Source: Mesoplasma florum L1
GTDB lineage: Bacteria > Bacillota_I > Bacilli_A > Mycoplasmatales > Mycoplasmataceae
NCBI RefSeq assembly: GCF_000008305.1
Contig: NC_006055.1
Coordinates: forward strand, 660,001-692,000
Direction: 5' to 3'
Length of the DNA stretch: 32,000 nucleotides
Position 1 is the stretch's first letter. Each line of letters starts with the position of its first letter. A program made the position numbers and the translations under genes. The notes under the pieces are model-generated. The model had not been told where the DNA came from. It did not search any database and worked only from the letters and a program-made list of their open reading frames with translations. Below, in pieces: positions 4,114 to 31,891 of the stretch.

Positions 4114-4137
4114 GAGTTTTTAAACTCTTATTTTTTT
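4112..4137. terminator. bidirectional intrinsic terminator between rnj and the ABC permease
   Basis: Hairpin AAGAGT-TTTTAA-ACTCTT is followed by T7 on the plus strand and by TTTTTTGTTT on the minus strand. It sits between convergent stop codons at 4111-4113 and 4136-4138. Confidence 0.6.
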
Positions 4138-6751
4138 AATAATTAATGTTTGTGATTTTTAACTTTTTAATATTTTTTGAATATTTAATAGAATTCTTTA
4201 AGTCTTTTCGTGTTTTTAAATCTGTTGTTGTTTTTAATGATTTTCTAAATTTAATTATTTCTAATTTTGATTCTTGTCTAACTTGTACAACTCAAGCTTT
4301 TCTTTTTGAAGCAAAATCTTTTTTATTATTCTTGAATTTTAATTCTTCTAATTTGACAATATTATTGTCAGTTATTGAACTATCATATTTTTTTCTAATA
4401 TCATAGAAATCTATATATGCCTTATTTCATGCATCTTTAAATGATAGCTTTTCTTCTTTTTTCATTGCTATTGCATTATTTAATATAGTTTGATTTGTGT
4501 AAGCATATAAAGACATTGATTCTTCATATGATAATTTAGAGTCTATATTTAATTGTTTTTCATTTGATTTAAAAGTTGCAAAGTATCTTTGATTTACAAA
4601 ATTTATTATTGAAGAAATTCAATTTAAATTAGTTCCAAATGAAAGTTTATTTCTTATTGAAGCTGAAATAAATTCAATTAATAGTGTAAATAAAATAATA
4701 CCGAATAATAACGCTCCAAATTCATTAAAATATTGATCAGAAAAATATGAATTTAATAAATATCCCATATTACCAGCTCCGACAGCACCTAACATTGCAA
4801 CTTCTTTAAAGTTTATATCAAATCTATAAATAATATTTGACATCGCTGCTGTTGATGTTTGAGACATTATCCCATATCTTAATTTGGTAAATCAATTAAC
4901 TCCTGTTGCTTCAAGTTGAAAAATTATTTTTTGATTTATATCATCAAATAACTCTCTATTATATTTTGTAAGCATACCTATAGTTCCCATAATAAGCGCT
5001 AATACACCTGTAAAAGGACCCATTCCAACAACAATTACAAATATTAATGCATAAATATAACTTGGGATTGCCCTCATCATTGATGTTAATGCGACAAAAA
5101 TTCTTGCTACATATTTATTAACAATTTTTTCTGATGATAACATACCTAGTACATATGCAATCACTGCACCTATAAAAGTTCCTACAACTGCTATCGATAA
5201 AGTTTCATATAAAAGATACATAACACTATAGGGTGCATTACTGTTTCCACCATTTGCTTTAGAAATGAATAACGATGATCAATTTATTTTTAAAATTTCT
5301 AATAAATTTTTATTTGTTGCTTCAATTAATTCTTTTGATGAAAGTTTAAATTCTAGTAATGTTAATGTGTAAATGAAGAAACCTAAAATTATTGCATATA
5401 AAACTATTCTTTTAATATAATTTTTAGGTTCACTTCTTAAAACTTTCTCAACAGATAGATTTTCAATAAAATTTTTATGAGCATCAGCTCTTTCATTTTT
5501 TATTTCTTCTATTTTTGCATTTTTAATTTCATTAACTTTAAATTTAAATTTTACTTTATTTACTTTATCTATTCTATAACGTAAGCCAGTTTCAAAATCT
5601 TTTGCATACAAGTCAAAACTATTTGGATTTGATTTCTTTAATTTTTTATAAGCTTCGATGTCATTTTCTATTTTAGTACTTAAGTCACTTTTAAAGTTAT
5701 TTATTAATTCTTTTTTTTCCTCTACCAATTTTTTGGTATTTTCTTGGCTTTTAGAATCATTTATTTTTTTATCTATATCTACACAAAGTACATTTTTAAT
5801 ATAAAAATTAATGTCTTTTTGAGATTTTATTTTATTTATTTTTTTATCAAATTTTCTTTGCTCTTTACCATCTATTCTAAAATCTTTATCTTCAATAATG
5901 TAATTTCTAATTAATCATATTGAAAGTTCTAAAAATAGTATAACTGCAACTAATAGAGTTAATAAGAAACCAACTCTATTTCACTCATTATAGTCAACTG
6001 CATTGTTTATCATTTGACCTATTCCCATTCTTGTTACACCCGCAATGATTGAAACGTATCTTATGTTAGTTTCAAGAGAGTAAAACATTATTGAAAGTAC
6101 ATGATGAGATACCTGAGGTCAAACAGCTGCTCTAAATGATACAGATTTATTAGCTCCAGTTGATTGAGAAGCAGTAAATATTTTAATATTTATTTGTTCT
6201 ATTCTTTCATACAATGTTTTACCTGAAATTGAAAATGTAAACATAGTTAATGAAAGTGTTACTGTGAAAGTGGTAGCACCAAAATAATTTACAAGAACTA
6301 ATGCATACACAAATGATGGTATAGTTCTGAATATTGAAAGTATAAGTCTAGCTATAAAATTTACAGATTTATTTTTTACAATATTTGAAGAAGCTAAAAT
6401 AGCTACGGGAATTGCAATTACAACACCAATAACAGTTCCAGCAAATGCCATAACGATAGTGTCTCATATAGAAACAAAAGCGTTATATAAAAATGAGTGC
6501 CCTGTTCCATTTATTGTGCTAAAGTCAGTTCAATCTCATTTAAACATTTCACCTATTCTTTCAAAAAGACTAGGCATATCTCTAAAAAACTCTAATCATT
6601 TTGAATCTAATGTAAAAAATGAGAGTATTACTATAAAAAGCGTAAATAAAGTTATTGATCAAAAGAATATTTTTTTTGGGGATTTTGAATAGTTATCTTT
6701 TATCTTGAATGCTTTTTGATTCAAAATAGAATTTGATAATCTTTTAGTCAT
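4136..6751 (-). CDS. phnE: ABC transporter permease, fused tandem PhnE-type domains with a charged linker and a basic C-terminal tail (871 aa)
   Basis: Track ORFs 6119-6451, 5279-5728, 4892-5221 and 4619-4867 share one frame. I translated all gaps and the regions 6452-6751 and 4136-4618 and found only TGA, no TAA/TAG. ATG at 6749-6751 overlaps the upstream stop (TAATG). There are two hydrophobic permease blocks (AFAGTVIGVVIAIPVAILASSN..., VVGTFIGAVIAYVLGMLSSEK...). The symbol is family-level only; the substrate is uncertain. Confidence 0.8.
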
Positions 6752-7500
6752 TATTTTCCGTAAATTTCTTCTAATTTGGATTCATTTAATTTTTTAGGGT
6801 CCCCATCAAATACTATTTCTCCATCTTTTAATCCTATTATTCGATCACAATATTTTAATGCTAAATCGACATGATGAATATTTATAATAACTGTTATATT
6901 TAATTCCGAGTTAATTTTCTTAAAATCTTCCATAACTCTATTTGCTAATATTGGGTCAAGTGCTGAAACAGGTTCATCTGCTATTATTATTTTAGGATTT
7001 TGATTTATTGTTCTTGCTAAAGCAACACGTTGTTGCTGACCACCAGACAAATTATCAGCCCTAATATATGAAAACTCAAGTAAATTAAGTTTTTCAAGAG
7101 CTGCAAGAGCATTTTGTTTTTCTTCTTTGGTAAAAAAACCTGCCATTGCTCTAAAAAAATTCATTTGAGCAACTCTTGAGTTTAAAACATTTTTTAAAAC
7201 TGTTTGTTTTTCAATGTTGTTATACTCTTGTGACATTAACCCAATGTGTTTTCTTAAATTTCTTAAAGATTTACCTTTAGTTTTATTAATTTCATATTTT
7301 TCATTTTCATTTATATCAATAAAAATTTCTCCAGAGCTAATATTATTTATCTTATTTATGGTTTTCAACAATGTAGTTTTACCAGCTCCTGATAAACCAA
7401 TAACAGCAACAAATTCACCCGCATTAATTTTTAAATTAATGTCTTTTAAAACATGTTTTCCATTTGGTCAAACTTTTTCAACTTTTTTAAATTCTATCAT
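6751..7500 (-). CDS. phnC: ABC transporter ATP-binding protein, PhnC-type (249 aa)
   Basis: The start [45 protein letters not shown] was recovered upstream of track ORF 6751-7371 in the same frame, with one TGA read as W. Contains Walker A [9 protein letters not shown], signature LSGGQQQR and Walker B IIIADEP. Confidence 0.9.
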
Positions 7501-7518
7501 TATATTCACTTAGCAAGC

Positions 7519-7569: not shown

Positions 7570-8787
7570 CTAAAGATCTTTTATTAATGCTTCAATTTTT
7601 TCTGCTTCAACACTAGTAACAGTTATTTCTTTATCTAATGCTGTTTCTCATTCAATTGGGGCTTGTTCTCCTTCAGGGCCAATATAATCTGCATGATTGT
7701 AAACATTAAAAATTTCTTTGTTTTCTTCTTTACTAATAAGATCTTTGAATGAATCTCTTAAGTCTTTTATAACTTTATCATCATTCACTCTTTTTCTAGA
7801 ATACATTATTCCGTCATTTATTATTTTGTCAGTCATTCCAATAACACTTGTATTTTTAAAAGCTTTTATTGAAGCTGCTTCATCTTTAATTTCGTATCTA
7901 ATATCACTGAAACCAACAGCAACACTTTCTGAATTAGATACAACTTCTGCAGCACTTGGATAATTCTCTTGTTTTTTTGAGTTTATGTATATGTATTTAA
8001 CTTGTTGATCGTTAAATTTGGCTACATTTTTAAGTCACATCAAAGGATAAATAGTACCTGCACTTGAAGTTTTACTTTTAGAAACAGCAAAATTTACAGT
8101 TCCCTTTGCTTCATCACCTTTTGCATCTGGTAAAATTAATTTTCTCAAAGTTTCTCCATATGAATCATCTTGAATTGAAGAAATATCAATTCCTTGTTTT
8201 TCCAATAATTTATTGTTAACGTATACATATGATCTATAATATGCTGATTTTTCTTTTGTATCTAAATATTTTTCTCTAATTTGTTCTTTTGTAATATTTT
8301 CTTCTTCTGAAATATCCAATAATTCATTATAATTTTTTGCATATTTTAATGAGTCACTTTGTGTTATAGGACCATCTGGCATACCAGCTTCAACACTATA
8401 TGCATCTCTAGAAGATTCAAGAAGAATACCTAGTTTGTCATATGTTCCGTCTTCTTTCAGAGTACCTTTATTTTTATTGTAAGTTCCTACTGGTAAAAAT
8501 GCTAAATCAGCTTTACCAGCAGCCAATGTTGATCCAGCAGCTTCATAATTTGTAGAAGTTGAAATTTTAACTTTTTTAGTAAATGTTTCGCCACGCTCTT
8601 CAGCTCTTGCTTTCATTTCTGCTTGTAGTTTTCCTTCCAATGGTTTAACTGTGTTAATAACTTCAGTTGCATTATTTGATGGAATAAAAATAATGTCAAA
8701 TGTATCTGTTGTTCCACATGAGACAACTGTTGTTGCAGCTGTTCCTGTTAATCCAATTGCGCCAACTATTGCTAATAATTTTTTCAT
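7570..8787 (-). CDS. phnD: ABC transporter substrate-binding lipoprotein, PhnD/p37 family (405 aa)
   Basis: Track ORFs 8035-8787 and 7648-7836 share one frame. The gaps were translated with TGA only, and the gene ends at TAG 7570-7572. It has a signal peptide with a lipobox (MKKLLAIVGAIGLTGTAATTVVSC), RBS AGGGGGA, and PhnD-like segments AAGKADLAFLPVGTY and AVGFSDIRYE. The symbol is family-level only. Confidence 0.8.
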
Positions 8788-8843
8788 ATTTCCCCCTATT
8801 TTGAAAAAACCAACTTAAAGAAAAACTTTAAAAAATAGAAAAA

Positions 8844-8870
8844 AGAGGTTTTTTTTTACAAAAAACCTCT
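8844..8870 (-). terminator. intrinsic terminator forming the riboswitch expression platform
   Basis: Minus-strand RNA AGAGGUUUUUU-GUAA-AAAAAAACCUCU is followed by UUUUUUCUAUUUUU. It lies 4 nt downstream of the aptamer and about 55 nt upstream of the binding-protein start codon. Confidence 0.65.
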
Positions 8871-8874
8871 ACAC

Positions 8875-8937
8875 ACTTATAGTCCCGAGATTGGTCCCGG
8901 GGCGGTTCAGTAGCCCATTATGCTACCCTGTATAAGT
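8875..8937 (-). promoter_or_regulatory. purine-riboswitch-family aptamer, 2'-deoxyguanosine-type variant (Mesoplasma florum MFR-like)
   Basis: A GC-rich island in an AT-rich spacer. The minus-strand RNA ACUUAUA-CAGG-GUAGC-AUAAUGG-GCUAC-UGAACCGC-CCCGGGA-CCAA-UCUCGGG-AC-UAUAAGU folds as a three-way junction with P1 of 7 bp, P2 of 5-6 bp and P3 of 7 bp. The 5' half and the ACUAUAAG 3' junction match my memory of the M. florum type I-A 2'-dG aptamer almost exactly. P3 differs in sequence but keeps its pairing. Confidence 0.7.
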
Positions 8938-8961
8938 TTTTCTTATTAAGTTGTTATTTAC

Positions 8962-8990
8962 ATTTTAAACATATTTTTAAAAACAAACAA
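8962..8990 (-). promoter_or_regulatory. candidate sigma-70-type promoter for the riboswitch/ABC operon
   Basis: On the minus strand: TTGTTT (8985-8990), a 17-nt spacer, then TAAAAT (8962-8967), about 25 nt upstream of the aptamer. AT-rich DNA produces many such matches. Confidence 0.35.
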
Positions 8991-9081
8991 TAGTTTATGA
9001 AAAAAATATTTTTTTCTTACATTATACTTTTACAGGTAAAAATATTATAATTAATCTAACCATAAAAGGAGATTATAAAAT

Positions 9082-10032
9082 ATGGCTATAAATAGAAATT
9101 ATGGGCGAAGCTATATTCCTAGAGGGTTTATAAAATTTGCTCAAATATTAGGTACAGCAGTAACAGCTCTTATTCTAATAATGACAATTTACTTTTTTTC
9201 AAGTAGTGATTTCTTGGGTTCAGGTGATCCAAACACAGTTACATTTAGTTCTTTAATAATTGGTATCGAGATTTACTTCTTGTGAAAATCAATATATTCA
9301 GCATATGTGATAATTAGTTATTTAAATTCTGCTTCAGATGAAGAAGTAATTGCTAATAGATATATACTTGCAATTTTGAGTGTTGGGGTTGGAGGATTAA
9401 TTACACCTTTCATACTAACATCATTACCAAACATTGAAACTCAATCTTCAATGAATCCAAGAGCATTCTTGGCAAAACATTTAGGATTAACAATGTTAAT
9501 CGGTTTTACATTATTTTTAGTATCTTTTGTTTGAATTACTTTATCATCAGGAATAACATTTAATGAACTAATTGATACAAGTACTGATTTTGGATTAATC
9601 GGATTCTTATCTTTAACTTTATCAATTGTTGGTTGATTAATAGGTGTACTTGGATTTGGATTATTTTCAAGAAGCAATTCATCTGATTTAATGAAAGAAA
9701 AGAACTTACAAGGATATATGATGCAAATAGTTGGTGTTATTTTTACAATCATTGCCACTTTAGAATTAGTATTCTTAATTATAATGGCTATCTTTAGATT
9801 AATAGGTGTTATATTCCAATCATTTAGTTATATGAACCGTTACGACGGATTCCTTAAAGTATTCGCAATATTCTTGGCATTTTCTAGAATAGGACTTGAA
9901 ATTTGATATGTTACTTGAGTTGTTTCAATGTATTCAAAAATTATTTCAGGGCTTTGATCAAAAGAACAAGTTATTAAAATTAATAACTTTGAAAAAGTTG
10001 ATGAAGCTAGAGTTCAGGAACAAAAAGCATAA
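9082..10032 (+). CDS. hypothetical polytopic membrane protein (316 aa)
   Basis: Track ORFs 9082-9285, 9307-9534 and 9691-9906 share one frame joined by TGA, and the gene continues to TAA 10030-10032. RBS AAAGGAGA is at about 9065. Hydrophobic helices run throughout. I recognised no family motif. Confidence 0.7.
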
Positions 10033-10095: not shown

Positions 10096-10602
10096 TTATT
10101 TTAATTCTTTTTTAGCTTTTTTAAGTGCTGCATCATAAATCATCTTTGCTTCTTCATCAATGTAGTCATTAGCATGTTCTCCATTTTTAACAAAAGATAA
10201 TGCATACGCATAGCCACCAAACCCTGAGACAAAACATAAAACAAAAAATATACCACAAAATACAAGTTCAATAATTCCTTTAGTTTTTTTGGCTTCATCA
10301 ATTATCACATGATTATTTAAATCTTCTCAATCATAGCTTTTAGAAGTAAATAAATCTATCATTCCAACAGACATCAAAATGGAAGCAATAACAACAAAAA
10401 TAAGAGCTAAAATAACTCATGGTAATATTTTTTTATTAACTGTCTTATAACATCCCATATGACTTGTGTATATTCTTCCACTTGTTGACACAAAACCTAA
10501 ATTTGAATTATTAGGAGTATAAATAGCACCAGCTGAACTTTGACCACTTCTGCTTAATTGGTATGGTTTTATTGGTTTTTTACAATAGTTACAATTTTTC
10601 AT
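10096..10602 (-). CDS. hypothetical membrane protein with an N-terminal Cys-rich (zinc-ribbon-like) segment (168 aa)
   Basis: Track ORFs 10417-10602 and 10096-10308 share one frame, and the gap was translated (WVILALIFVVIASILMSVGMIDLFTSKSYDWEDLNNHV). The N-terminus is MKNCNYCKKP...HMGC. Two predicted TM helices are followed by a charged C-terminus. Confidence 0.65.
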
Positions 10603-10667
10603 ATTATCTCCTTTACTTATTATATTTTATAACTTTAAAAATAATATTTTTATATAATATAAATATA

Positions 10668-10780
10668 ACATTTTCGGGGCAAGGCGAAATTCCTTACCGA
10701 TGGTAATAGTCCATGAACCTTAATTGGTTGATTCAGTGAAATTCTGAAACCGACGGTATAGTCCGGATGGTAGAAAATGT
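10668..10780 (+). promoter_or_regulatory. FMN riboswitch (RFN element)
   Basis: UUUUCGGGGCAAGGCGAAAUUCCUUACCGAUGGUAAUAGUCCAUGAACC...GGUUGAUUCAGUGAAAUUCUGAAACCGACGGUAUAGUCCGGAUGGUAGAAAAUG matches the conserved RFN core (GGGGCAGGGUGAAAUUCC, CCGACAGU-UAGUCUGGAUG-GAGAA). The closing P1 helix is CAUUUUC/GAAAAUG. Confidence 0.9.
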
Positions 10781-10826
10781 CAGCTAACAATAAACAATTT
10801 TTTGTTTAATTTTTTGCTGTCCGCCT

Positions 10827-10869: not shown

Positions 10870-11556
10870 ATGGATAAAAAATATAAGTTATGAAATTATA
10901 AATATGATTTTTCAGAAATAAACTTAAAGAATTGAAAAGAAGTATTAAAAGATACTTTTAAACTTAATACTAGAAAAATAGCTTTGCTTTCAATGTTATT
11001 TGCAATTGAAATATTGATGACTATAATTTCTAAAGTTATTATGGGTCTAGCTATTCCAATGATTGTTGGTGTTTACACAATCGAGATTTCTTTCTTTGTC
11101 ATACTAATTATATATTTATGTTCTAACTACATATATGCATCTATATTGTCCATTACTGCGATTTGATTTAGATTATTATTAGGTAGTGAACCTGTAGGTT
11201 TACTTTCAATGATGATTTCAGATACAGCTTTTTTAACAATTTTTGCAGTTTTATTTTTCATCTTAAAAAAATTTATATTTTTAAAGTTTAAATTTAAAAA
11301 TCAAATAAAAATTCTTATTGCTTTAATTTGTTTTGCTGGTTTAATATCTATGATTGGATCAGGTTTTATTTCAATGTTGTGTAATGATAAATTTATTTTT
11401 GAAATGTATTATTTATCTGATGATGGTAGCGGTTATTGAAAAATGCTTTTATGAGTTGGATTTGGTGTAACTTTAGCTAAATATAGTATCAATATTTTGC
11501 TCTTTGCTTCAACGTTAAAGGTTTTATTAATTTTAATTAAACAATCTAGAGTATAA
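10870..11556 (+). CDS. putative riboflavin transporter (RibU-like ECF S-component membrane protein, 228 aa)
   Basis: ATG at 10870 follows AAAGGAGGA. Track ORFs 10984-11166 and 11209-11439 are in frame, and TGA-only gaps were translated to TAA 11554-11556. The protein is hydrophobic throughout. The function is inferred from the FMN riboswitch immediately upstream. Confidence 0.6.
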
Positions 11557-31698: not shown

Positions 31699-31774
31699 TG
31701 GCAGAGGTAACAAGACTCGAACTCGTGACACTCGGTTTTGGAGACCGATGTTCTACCATCTGAACTATACCTCT
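31699..31774 (-). tRNA. trnW: tRNA-Trp (anticodon CCA), CCA end encoded
   Basis: The reverse complement AGAGGTATAGTTCAGATGGTAGAACATCGGTCTCCAAAACCGAGTGTCACGAGTTCGAGTCTTGTTACCTCTGCCA folds into a full cloverleaf, with a 7-bp acceptor stem, the GTTC/GAAC D stem, the TCGGT/ACCGA anticodon stem, loop CTCCAAA and a TTCGAGT T-loop. Confidence 0.95.
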
Positions 31775-31815: not shown

Positions 31816-31891
31816 TGGCAGGGGCAGCAAGACTCGAACTCGCGACACTCGGTTTTGAAGACCGATGTTCTGCCAACTGAACTATGCCCCT
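31816..31891 (-). tRNA. trnW: tRNA-Trp (anticodon UCA, reads UGA and UGG), CCA end encoded
   Basis: The reverse complement AGGGGCATAGTTCAGTTGGCAGAACATCGGTCTTCAAAACCGAGTGTCGCGAGTTCGAGTCTTGCTGCCCCTGCCA forms a full cloverleaf. The anticodon loop is CTTCAAA with anticodon TCA. Confidence 0.95.

What the first reader, a model, noticed from the sequence alone, without database searches (positions are those of the whole stretch)
8844..8990. A 2'-deoxyguanosine-type purine riboswitch variant controls a 'phosphonate-family' ABC transporter
A 63-nt GC-rich island sits in the AT-rich leader of the PhnD/PhnC/PhnE-type operon. On the minus strand it folds as a purine-riboswitch-like three-way junction: P1 ACUUAUA/UAUAAGU, P2 GUAGC/GCUAC with loop AUAAUGG, and P3 CCCGGGA/UCUCGGG with loop CCAA. 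It is followed 4 nt later by a strong intrinsic terminator, so it looks like an OFF switch.

From memory, the 5' half (CUUAUACAGGGUAGCAUAAUGGGCUACUGA.CC.GCC) and the 3' junction (ACUAUAAG) are nearly identical to the Mesoplasma florum type I-A 2'-dG aptamer. P3 has a completely different sequence but keeps a 7-bp stem and a 4-nt loop, which looks like covariation. J2/3 is one nucleotide shorter (UGAACCGC), so ligand specificity could differ.

A guanine- or deoxyguanosine-class sensor makes no sense in front of a phosphonate importer. The transporter more likely imports a purine nucleoside, nucleotide or related compound. The related Mycoplasma p37 system binds thiamine pyrophosphate rather than phosphonate, as I recall.
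Basis: partly seen in the sequence, partly recalled or inferred. Interest (0 to 1): 0.7.

Follow-up and report, generated by a model that had tools for sequence, protein, structure and literature searches.

The report
Known 2'-deoxyguanosine riboswitch before a transporter
This is a real but already catalogued 2'-deoxyguanosine-sensing RNA switch of Mesoplasma florum that shuts off a 'phosphonate-type' importer, and related species keep purine-sensing switches in front of the same importer, so it probably carries a purine compound rather than phosphonate.

Summary
Window 8937-8875 (minus strand) matches Rfam RF01510 (2'-dG-I riboswitch) end to end at 90 bits, against a gathering score of 51. 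An 11-bp intrinsic terminator follows 4 nt later. The leader precedes an operon of binding lipoprotein, PhnC-like ATPase and fused double PhnE-like permease.

It is not new. The binding protein is 100% identical to a Mesoplasma florum L1 protein, and M. florum is the organism in which this riboswitch class was defined (four copies, Kim 2007). This copy is probably the one called I-B, but that label is from memory.

What I add:
- The same transporter is preceded by a 2'-dG-I aptamer in M. grammopterae, M. entomophilum and Williamsoniiplasma somnilux. The P3 stem shows compensatory changes.
- It is preceded by a guanine-type aptamer in M. seiffertii and Spiroplasma floricola, and by a degenerate relative in M. 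corruscae.
- Four other Spiroplasma/Mycoplasma genomes have no riboswitch there.

The binding protein fails the PhnD models. Its predicted fold is closest to Mycoplasma p37, which binds thiamine pyrophosphate.

My best guess is a (deoxy)nucleotide importer, a function known in Mollicutes but with no gene assigned.

The parts
8962..8967 (-). Putative -10 box TAAAAT. The predicted transcription start is about A8955, just before ACAACUU.
   Evidence: It matches the M. florum promoter motif TAWAAT, with the start 6-7 nt downstream on a purine (PMC7745072). The box and spacing are conserved in M. entomophilum and W. somnilux leaders. Inferred; no transcription start data were read.
8938..8955 (-). 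5' flank of the leader (AACAACUUAAUAAGAAAAA). Together with the P1 5' strand it supplies the 5' strand of the antiterminator and of a long-range helix.
   Evidence: Cotranscriptional folding; duplex energies.
8875..8937 (-). 2'-dG-I riboswitch aptamer, a three-way junction P1/P2/P3.
   Evidence: RF01510 at 90 bits, E 6.6e-19. The minimum-free-energy fold equals the consensus structure. 96.4% of cells are paired across 7 homologues, against 31-42% when partners are slid. Three of 7 P3 pairs show compensatory changes.
8902..8909 (-). J2/3 (UGAACCGC). It carries the equivalents of C57 and C58 of I-A, which contact the sugar and the sugar edge of the ligand.
   Evidence: Alignment to the RF01510 consensus and to the I-A orthologue. 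Residue roles are from PMC6847200.
8844..8870 (-). Intrinsic terminator hairpin (AGAGGUUUUUU / AAAAAACCUCU), followed by a U tract down to about 8830.
   Evidence: Terminator scan: 1 found, 0.2 expected. Energy -11.9 kcal/mol. Present in all orthologous leaders.
8811..8828 (-). Post-terminator strand AAGUUUUUCUUUAAGUUG, complementary to 8953-8934. Its role is unknown.
   Evidence: Full-leader minimum-free-energy fold; duplex -15.3 kcal/mol. Predicted in four species.
8791..8797 (-). Shine-Dalgarno sequence AGGGGGA. An upstream U-rich tract (8810-8803) is predicted to pair with it.
   Evidence: Sequence; folds. Inferred.
7570..8787 (-). Substrate-binding lipoprotein, 405 aa, PhnD/p37-like fold.
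   Evidence: Read with translation table 4. Pfam PF12974 44 bits, partial. 100% identical to an M. florum L1 lipoprotein. AlphaFold2 pLDDT 86. Best PDB fold match is p37, 3e78.
6751..7509 (-). ABC ATPase, PhnC-type.
   Evidence: TIGR02315 at 339 bits, cut-off 266.
4136..6751 (-). Fused double permease, 871 aa, PhnE-type.
   Evidence: TIGR01097 at 361 bits in two stretches; PF00528 in two stretches.

Best explanation
This is a known copy of the Mesoplasma florum 2'-deoxyguanosine class I riboswitch. It is a paralogue of the well-studied I-A switch of the ribonucleotide reductase operon. It acts as a transcription-termination OFF switch on a three-gene ABC importer.

Proposed mechanism:
1. Transcription starts at about 8955.
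2. When 2'-dG, or a very close guanine deoxynucleoside derivative, is bound in the junction, P1 is held closed. The hairpin at 8870-8844 then forms and RNA polymerase stops in the U tract.
3. Without ligand, the 5' flank plus the P1 5' strand (GAAAAACUUAUACA) pairs with the terminator's 5' arm (UGUAGAGGUUUUUU). This 13-bp antiterminator encloses P2 and P3, as the P0/AT helix does in I-A, and the operon is transcribed.

The importer is mislabelled as a phosphonate system. Its binding protein belongs to the PhnD/p37 fold and keeps what looks like a phosphoryl-binding motif. Its expression is tied to guanine or deoxyguanosine sensing in many relatives. It therefore most likely imports a phosphorylated purine compound such as dGMP or other (deoxy)nucleoside monophosphates, and is feedback-repressed together with ribonucleotide reductase when deoxynucleosides are plentiful.

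What is shown: family membership, structure, terminator, and conservation of the riboswitch-transporter link.
What is inferred: the transcription start, the antiterminator, the ligand of this copy, and the transporter's substrate.

The confidence of 0.85 applies to the riboswitch identity and OFF-switch design. The nucleotide-importer part alone deserves about 0.35.
For: - Family membership: RF01510 at 90 bits, full length. The structure equals the minimum-free-energy fold.
- Covariation in P3 and P2 across 7 homologues.
- Terminator.
- An antiterminator is predicted at transcript lengths 109-115 nt in this leader, and also in M. entomophilum and M. corruscae. It has the same design as the experimentally dissected I-A switch (PMC12268651).
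- Source organism: the binding protein is 100% identical to an M. florum L1 protein. All four known 2'-dG-I examples are from M. florum (PMC5473149).
- Ligand-shell residues equivalent to C31/C58/C80 are kept (roles from PMC6847200).
- The link to the transporter is conserved:
  - RF01510 hits of 80-91 bits sit before the orthologous operon in three M. florum strains, M. grammopterae, M. entomophilum and W. somnilux.
  - RF00167 (guanine type) at 52 bits in M. seiffertii.
  - A guanine-type aptamer at 42 bits, E 7e-6, in S. floricola.
  - A degenerate relative in M. corruscae.
- Gene neighbours of the operon are guaA/guaB (L013), permeases of the BPD_transp_2 family, which includes the ribonucleoside (Rns-type) ABC importers (L014), and pyrimidine-nucleoside phosphorylase (L019).
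- The binding protein fails the PhnD models. Its fold is nearest to p37, and the same fold list includes XAC2383 bound to ATP.
- Y103, Y184 and T240-S241 are invariant across the family, and two of these motifs align to PtxB.
- Uptake of deoxynucleoside monophosphates by M. mycoides is documented, with no gene assigned (PMC6609329).
Against: - No binding or termination assay for this copy could be read. Kim 2007 is not in the library, so the I-B label and its measured ligand rest on memory.
- J2/3 is one nucleotide shorter than in I-A, and its fourth position varies (A/U/C) among orthologues. That could change sugar recognition.
- The ATPase and permease pass NCBI's PhnC and PhnE equivalog cut-offs.
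- No pocket-level model of the binding protein with a ligand was made.
- Four orthologous operons (S. tabanidicola, S. helicoides, M. capricolum, L021) have no riboswitch.
- The antiterminator is less clear in W. somnilux.
Confidence: 0.85

Rival explanations
1. The aptamer is a 2'-dG-I relative with a shifted specificity, for example guanosine, dGMP or another guanine derivative. The cause would be its shorter J2/3 and the A in place of a C in the stack that forms the sugar pocket.
For: J2/3 is UGAACCGC here and UGACCCCGC in the I-A orthologue. This position varies among orthologues (A, U, C). In 2'-dG riboswitches J2/3 shapes the deoxyribose pocket (PMC6847200). Guanine-type aptamers control the same transporter elsewhere.
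Against: The first-shell residues equivalent to C31, C58 and C80, and C57, are unchanged. The 8-nt J2/3 is the Rfam consensus for the class. The literature counts all four M. florum copies as 2'-dG-I (PMC5473149).
Confidence: 0.12
2. The operon is a genuine phosphonate, phosphite or phosphate importer, as annotated. The riboswitch merely couples phosphorus supply to the demand for DNA precursors.
For: PhnC equivalog at 339 bits and PhnE equivalog at 361 bits, both above cut-off. PtxB, PhnD and HtxB are among the top fold matches. Anion-binding-like motifs are conserved.
Against: The binding protein, which sets specificity, is far below the PhnD-family cut-offs (47 against 112 bits; no PhnD equivalog hit) and is about 100 residues larger. 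No phosphonate catabolism genes are in the 32-kb window. Repression of phosphorus import by guanine or 2'-dG has no known rationale or precedent, as far as I know. Its closest structural relative, p37, binds an organic pyrophosphate ester rather than phosphonate (PMC6609329).
Confidence: 0.2
3. The operon is the M. florum thiamine or thiamine-pyrophosphate importer, an orthologue of p37/Cypl/MG289.
For: The best PDB fold match is p37 3e78 (E 7.6e-12, TM 0.60-0.65), and MG289 3myu is also high. A p37-like system is taken to import ThDP in JCVI-syn3A (PMC6609329).
Against: Only 10-14% identity to p37 and MG289. Regulation is by purine-clan aptamers in seven species and never by a TPP riboswitch. 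The mycoides group has two distinct 'phn' lineages, and this one is the vertically inherited Entomoplasmatales type, not the Mycoplasmatales (p37) type (PMC6117150).
Confidence: 0.06
4. The transporter takes up unphosphorylated purine nucleosides or bases (2'-dG, guanosine, guanine), like the targets of classical guanine riboswitches.
For: Guanine-type and 2'-dG-type aptamers control it. In W. somnilux it lies next to permeases of the BPD_transp_2 family, which includes the ribonucleoside (Rns-type) ABC importers.
Against: The PhnD/p37 fold family binds phosphorus oxyanions or phosphate esters in every liganded match listed. The motif equivalent to the PhnD anion site is invariant (the assignment is inferred). 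Mollicutes already have a nucleoside ABC importer, RnsABCD (PMC6609329).
Confidence: 0.15

Closest known systems
M. florum type I-A 2'-dG riboswitch (mfl / dGsw) of the nrdF-nrdI-nrdE operon; Rfam RF01510
   Same: Same organism and same Rfam family. The two are identical through P1 5', J1/2, P2, L2 and J3/1. The first-shell cytosines are the same, P3 is 7 bp with a 4-nt L3, and both are terminator OFF switches. In both, the antiterminator is built from the 5' flank plus the P1 5' strand. The leaders are visibly homologous: 82% identity over 84 nt to the M. grammopterae I-A leader.
   Different: The P3 sequence is entirely different. J2/3 is one nucleotide shorter. The terminator is a different hairpin, placed directly after the aptamer. 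The strand that serves as antiterminator and terminator arm in I-A (AAGUUUCUUUUUAUGUC) here lies after the terminator. The controlled genes are an ABC importer rather than ribonucleotide reductase.
Guanine riboswitches controlling purine importers (e.g. B. subtilis xpt-pbuX; RF00167)
   Same: Same fold clan (CL00123). Same logic: an end product represses its own uptake or salvage through a terminator. Guanine-type members control the orthologous transporter in M. seiffertii and S. floricola.
   Different: C replaces U at the position equivalent to 51, J2/3 is reorganised, and the L2 and L3 loops are shortened. The ligand is a deoxynucleoside, not a base.
Mycoplasma hyorhinis p37 / M. genitalium MG289 (Cypl) extracytoplasmic thiamine(-PP) binding lipoproteins with their ABC partners
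   Same: Mollicute lipoprotein with a PhnD-like fold that is larger than canonical PhnD. It is encoded with a PhnC-like ATPase and a PhnE-like permease. This is a precedent for the 'phosphonate' annotation being wrong.
   Different: Only 10-14% identity. It belongs to a different lineage (Entomoplasmatales type, PMC6117150). Its regulation points to purines, not thiamine.
E. coli PhnCDE / P. stutzeri PtxABC phosphonate and phosphite importers
   Same: The ATPase and permease pass the PhnC and PhnE equivalog models. The binding protein shares the fold and probably the oxyanion-binding motifs.
   Different: The binding protein fails the family cut-offs. The permease is a fused duplicate of 871 aa. 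No phosphonate catabolism genes are present. The operon is under riboswitch control by 2'-dG or guanine.

Membership tests
2'-dG-I riboswitch (Rfam RF01510) | Covariance-model score at or above the curated gathering score, over the full model | tested here: met
   90.0 bits against 51; model positions 1-63 of 63, no indels, E 6.6e-19.
2'-dG-I riboswitch (Rfam RF01510) | Purine-type three-way junction (P1, P2, P3) supported by covariation | tested here: met
   The minimum-free-energy fold equals the consensus. 96.4% of cells are paired, against 31-42% in slid controls. Four pairs show changes on both sides, three of them in P3.
2'-dG-I riboswitch (Rfam RF01510) | Shortened loops L2 (7 nt, ...UGG) and L3 (4 nt, CC..) able to form the two G-C loop-loop pairs | tested here: met
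   L2 is AUAAUGG and L3 is CCAA. The loop-loop pairing itself is inferred from I-A structures (PMC6847200).
2'-dG-I riboswitch (Rfam RF01510) | First-shell nucleotides C31, C58 and C80 (I-A numbering), plus C57 | tested here: met
   Present as the C after P1 (8930), the CC before GC in J2/3 (8905-8904) and the C of GACU (8882), by alignment to the consensus and the I-A orthologue. Roles are from PMC6847200.
2'-dG-I riboswitch (Rfam RF01510) | Selective binding of 2'-deoxyguanosine over guanine and guanosine | not testable with these tools
   Needs in-line probing or ITC. The original report (Kim 2007) is not held in the library.
2'-dG-I riboswitch (Rfam RF01510) | Expression platform: intrinsic terminator with a mutually exclusive antiterminator | tested here: met
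   Terminator at 8870-8844. A predicted 13-bp antiterminator uses the P1 5' strand and the terminator 5' arm. This is prediction only.
PhnCDE phosphonate ABC transporter | PhnC ATPase and PhnE permease equivalogs | tested here: met
   TIGR02315 at 339 bits (cut-off 266); TIGR01097 at 361 bits (cut-off 217).
PhnCDE phosphonate ABC transporter | PhnD-family substrate-binding protein above the family cut-off | tested here: not met
   TIGR01098 at 47 bits against a cut-off of 112. No hit to the PhnD equivalog TIGR03431. Only a partial PF12974 match covering residues 237-369. The profile against PDB gives PtxB at E 0.035 only.
PhnCDE phosphonate ABC transporter | Genomic association with phosphonate or phosphite utilisation genes | tested here: not met
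   None in the 32-kb window or in the flanks of 11 orthologous loci. The whole genome was not searched.
p37/Cypl thiamine-pyrophosphate binding lipoproteins | Sequence-level homology to p37 or MG289 | tested here: not met
   No PDB sequence hit to 3e78 or 3myu at E up to 10 with the single sequence or the profile. The similarity is fold-level only: E 7.6e-12, 14% identity.
p37/Cypl thiamine-pyrophosphate binding lipoproteins | Thiamine-linked regulation or context | tested here: not met
   No TPP riboswitch in any of 12 loci; purine-clan aptamers instead.

The most novel reading that the evidence does not exclude
The riboswitch-controlled PhnC/PhnE/p37-like system is the long-sought Mollicute importer of intact (deoxy)nucleoside monophosphates. 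That activity was shown physiologically in M. mycoides in 1984 and has had no gene assigned. Under this reading, M. florum runs a small 2'-dG regulon that shuts off both de novo synthesis (ribonucleotide reductase) and import of DNA precursors. As a side issue, the degenerate M. corruscae aptamer could be a further specificity variant of the class.
Probability: 0.3. Interest if true: 0.6.

Novelty: already known. Interest (0 to 1): 0.3.

Why it matters
The RNA itself adds nothing new. It is a founding member of a catalogued riboswitch class, found in its type organism.

The value lies in what the riboswitch says about its cargo. A transporter family annotated as 'phosphonate ABC transporter' across Entomoplasmatales and the mycoides group sits behind purine-clan aptamers in seven of the eleven species examined: 2'-dG-type in four, guanine-type in two and a degenerate relative in one.

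That gives a concrete, cheaply testable candidate for the unidentified nucleotide uptake system of Mollicutes. This is a gap noted in the JCVI-syn3A metabolic reconstruction (PMC6609329). It also warns against trusting the phosphonate label.

The results also show that the 2'-dG-I class is not confined to M. florum, as reviews state.

Tried and rejected
- The exact 63-mer was absent from the species-representative genome collection. M. florum appears to be missing or withheld there, since even the I-A sequence was not found in it.
- The degenerate core pattern found only M. grammopterae plus two chance hits in genomes (L003, L004) and one in metagenomes (L017). None of these chance hits has any Rfam signal.
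- The primary papers (Kim 2007; Pikovskaya 2011; Edwards and Batey 2009; Weinberg 2017) are not held. The 'I-B' label, its measured affinity and what the authors said about the downstream genes could therefore not be checked.
- Literature searches linking M. florum, riboswitch and phosphonate or ABC transporter found nothing relevant.
I went through the homology search instead.
- Sequence searches of the binding protein against PDB found nothing usable. Only the fold search was informative.
- I considered that the hairpin might be the 3' terminator of a neighbouring gene. I rejected this because the upstream gene (9082-10032) is divergent, and the U tract exists only on the minus strand.
- I considered a non-functional relic. 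I rejected this because the aptamer is conserved, with compensatory changes, across species whose binding proteins are only 46-73% identical.

Full report
**1. What is in the sequence**

On the minus strand, 8937-8875 reads ACUUAUACAGGGUAGCAUAAUGGGCUACUGAACCGCCCCGGGACCAAUCUCGGGACUAUAAGU.
- A scan of the whole window against Rfam 15 gives a full-length match to RF01510 (2dG-I riboswitch aptamer, M. florum): 90.0 bits, gathering score 51, E = 6.6e-19, no indels.
- Four nucleotides downstream lies the only terminator-like site in 8600-9200. It is an 11-bp hairpin at 8870-8844 followed by a U tract, where shuffles give 0.2 sites. Its energy is -11.9 kcal/mol.

**2. Source organism and genes**

The window has 26.6% G+C, and its genes are intact only when UGA is read as Trp.

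Downstream of the leader, on the minus strand, lie three genes:
- A 405-aa lipoprotein (8787-7570).
- A 252-aa ATPase (7509-6751).
- An 871-aa fused double permease (6751-4136).

The ATPase and permease pass NCBI's PhnC and PhnE equivalog cut-offs, at 339 and 361 bits. The lipoprotein does not pass the binding-protein models. It scores 47 bits on TIGR01098 against a cut-off of 112, does not hit the PhnD equivalog, and has only a partial Pfam PF12974 match.

The lipoprotein is 100% identical to 'unknown lipoprotein [Mesoplasma florum L1]'. The leader is identical in an M. florum genome, L005. The window is therefore M. florum itself. A review states that only four 2'-dG-I riboswitches are known, all in M. 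florum (PMC5473149). This RNA is one of them. I believe it is the one called I-B by Kim et al. 2007, but that paper is not in the library, so the label is from memory.

**3. Relation to I-A**

The pattern scan of species-representative genomes found two copies in M. grammopterae.
- L001 lies upstream of three genes that, from their sizes and order (340, 151 and 726 aa), I take to be nrdF-nrdI-nrdE. This is the I-A orthologue.
- L002 is syntenic with the window, at 96.3% identity over 8 kb.

The two aptamer types are identical through P1 5', J1/2, P2, L2 and J3/1. They differ completely in the P3 sequence but keep 7 bp and a 4-nt loop. They also differ by one nucleotide in J2/3: UGAACCGC here, UGACCCCGC in I-A. 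The Rfam consensus has the 8-nt form, so I-A is the copy with the insertion.

The residues that contact the ligand in the I-A structures are C31, C58 and C80, plus C57 (PMC6847200). All are present here. There is thus no positive sign of a changed ligand, although J2/3 shapes the sugar pocket and only an assay can settle the point.

**4. Mechanism**

The M. florum promoter motif is TAWAAT, with the start 6-7 nt downstream on a purine (PMC7745072). TAAAAT at 8967-8962 fits and predicts a start near A8955. The same spacing is seen in W. somnilux.

I folded transcripts of increasing length.
- The aptamer forms first.
- At 109-115 nt a 13-bp helix forms between GAAAAACUU-A-UACA (5' flank, P1 5' strand and J1/2) and UGUA-G-AGGUUUUUU (linker and terminator 5' arm).
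- Once the 3' arm is made, the terminator wins.
- The same antiterminator is predicted for M. entomophilum and M. corruscae, and less clearly for W. somnilux.

This is the design shown experimentally for I-A, where the 5' nucleotides including the P1 5' strand pair with an 'AT strand' unless 2'-dG locks P1 (PMC12268651). An OFF switch is therefore the best reading. It remains a prediction for this copy.

**5. Comparative evidence on the transporter**

I fetched the operons of the binding protein's homologues and scanned their leaders.

| Leader | Species (locus) | Evidence |
|---|---|---|
| RF01510, 80-91 bits, same position | Three M. florum strains, M. grammopterae, M. entomophilum, Williamsoniiplasma somnilux | |
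| RF00167, 52 bits; J2/3 GUCUCUAC and J3/1 C retained, so guanine type | M. seiffertii, between two tandem binding-protein genes | |
| Similar short-loop guanine-type aptamer, 42 bits to RF01510, E 7e-6 | S. floricola | |
| Degenerate relative, 26.8 bits, E 0.12, still followed by a terminator | M. corruscae | |

Across seven aptamers, 96.4% of cells pair, against 31-42% when partners are slid, and three of seven P3 pairs show compensatory changes.

Genes next to the operon also point to nucleotide metabolism:
- guaA and guaB in M. corruscae.
- Permeases of the BPD_transp_2 family, which includes the ribonucleoside (Rns-type) ABC importers, in W. somnilux.
- Pyrimidine-nucleoside phosphorylase in S. 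helicoides.

No phosphonate utilisation gene appears in the window or in any flank.

**6. The binding protein**

An AlphaFold2 model built on 24 homologues has mean pLDDT 86.
- Foldseek against PDB puts M. hyorhinis p37 first (3e78, E 7.6e-12). It is followed by PtxB, MG289, PhnD and others, including XAC2383 bound to ATP.
- p37 and MG289 are thiamine or thiamine-pyrophosphate binding lipoproteins (cited in PMC6609329).
- Residues invariant across the family include Y103, Y183-Y184-R185 and T240-S241.
- The FLPvgtY and YRS motifs align with PtxB.
- From memory, these correspond to the Tyr/Tyr/Ser-Thr-Ser oxyanion site of PhnD.

I infer that the ligand carries a phosphoryl group. Combined with the purine-linked regulation, a purine (deoxy)nucleotide is the most economical guess.

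M. mycoides takes up deoxynucleoside monophosphates through a system distinct from the nucleoside importer, and no gene has been assigned (PMC6609329). The mycoides group retains a vertically inherited Entomoplasmatales-type 'phn' system alongside a horizontally acquired Mycoplasma-type one (PMC6117150).

**7. Verdict**

However, the element is already catalogued, so novelty is 'already known'.

What remains open and testable is the transporter's substrate. The conserved riboswitch control makes the phosphonate annotation doubtful and a nucleotide importer plausible, at about 0.3-0.35.

My confidence is about 0.97 that this is a 2'-dG-I family riboswitch and about 0.85 that it is a terminator OFF switch. 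Interest is 0.3.

Noticed in passing
window 8953-8934 with 8828-8811 (minus strand): A near-perfect long-range helix (CAACUUAAUAAGAAAAACUU / AAGUUUUUCUUUAAGUUG, -15.3 kcal/mol) brackets the aptamer and terminator. It joins the predicted 5' end of the mRNA to the region just before the ribosome-binding site. It is predicted in M. entomophilum, W. somnilux and M. corruscae as well. In the nrd (I-A) leader the homologous 3' strand is the antiterminator and terminator arm, so the platform seems to have been rewired. Its function here is unknown; it could stabilise the 5' end or affect translation.
   Followed up: partly
window 8810-8803 and 8797-8791 (minus strand): A U-rich tract (GUUUUUUC) directly upstream of the Shine-Dalgarno sequence (AGGGGGA) is predicted to pair with it. 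Equivalent hairpins are predicted in the three other species' leaders. This may be a second, translational layer of control.
   Followed up: no
L013:2367-2425 (Mesoplasma corruscae): A diverged 2'-dG-I-like aptamer sits before the orthologous transporter: 26.8 bits, E 0.12. J2/3 is cut to about 5 nt, and the GG/CC loop-loop pairs are lost (L2 UAAAUGA, L3 CUAA). P1-P3 and a terminator are kept. The operon is divergent from guaA-guaB. It is either a decaying switch or a new specificity variant.
   Followed up: partly
L012:2324-2418 (M. seiffertii); L020:2294-2355 (Spiroplasma floricola): Guanine-type purine aptamers with the short M. florum-style loops control the same transporter family. In M. 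seiffertii the aptamer sits between two tandem binding-protein paralogues. The S. floricola RNA falls below the gathering scores and so would be missed by routine annotation.
   Followed up: partly
L011:2350-2412, L014:2352-2414, L001:4732-4795, L002:7912-7973: The 2'-dG-I class is not restricted to M. florum, as reviews say. Clear members (80-91 bits) occur in M. entomophilum, Williamsoniiplasma somnilux and M. grammopterae.
   Followed up: yes
window 10666-10782 (+) and 10870-11556 (+): An FMN riboswitch (119 bits) lies upstream of a 228-aa membrane protein with a weak ECF S-component match, probably a riboflavin transporter. The arrangement is conserved in M. florum strains and M. entomophilum.
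   Followed up: partly
window 31702-31774 and 31819-31891 (minus strand): Two tRNA genes (66-67 bits).
   Followed up: no
window 8944-8940 with 8936-8932 (minus strand): The 5' flank contains AUAAG, which mimics the P1 3' strand. It can form a small hairpin with the P1 5' strand (CUUAU) as soon as that strand is transcribed. The I-A leader has an equivalent. It may set the kinetic window for ligand sensing.
   Followed up: no
window 9082-10032 (+) and 10096-10602 (-): Two membrane proteins (316 and 168 aa) with no Pfam match lie between the two riboswitch-controlled units. They are conserved in the M. florum strains and, for the 316-aa protein, in M. entomophilum.
   Followed up: no
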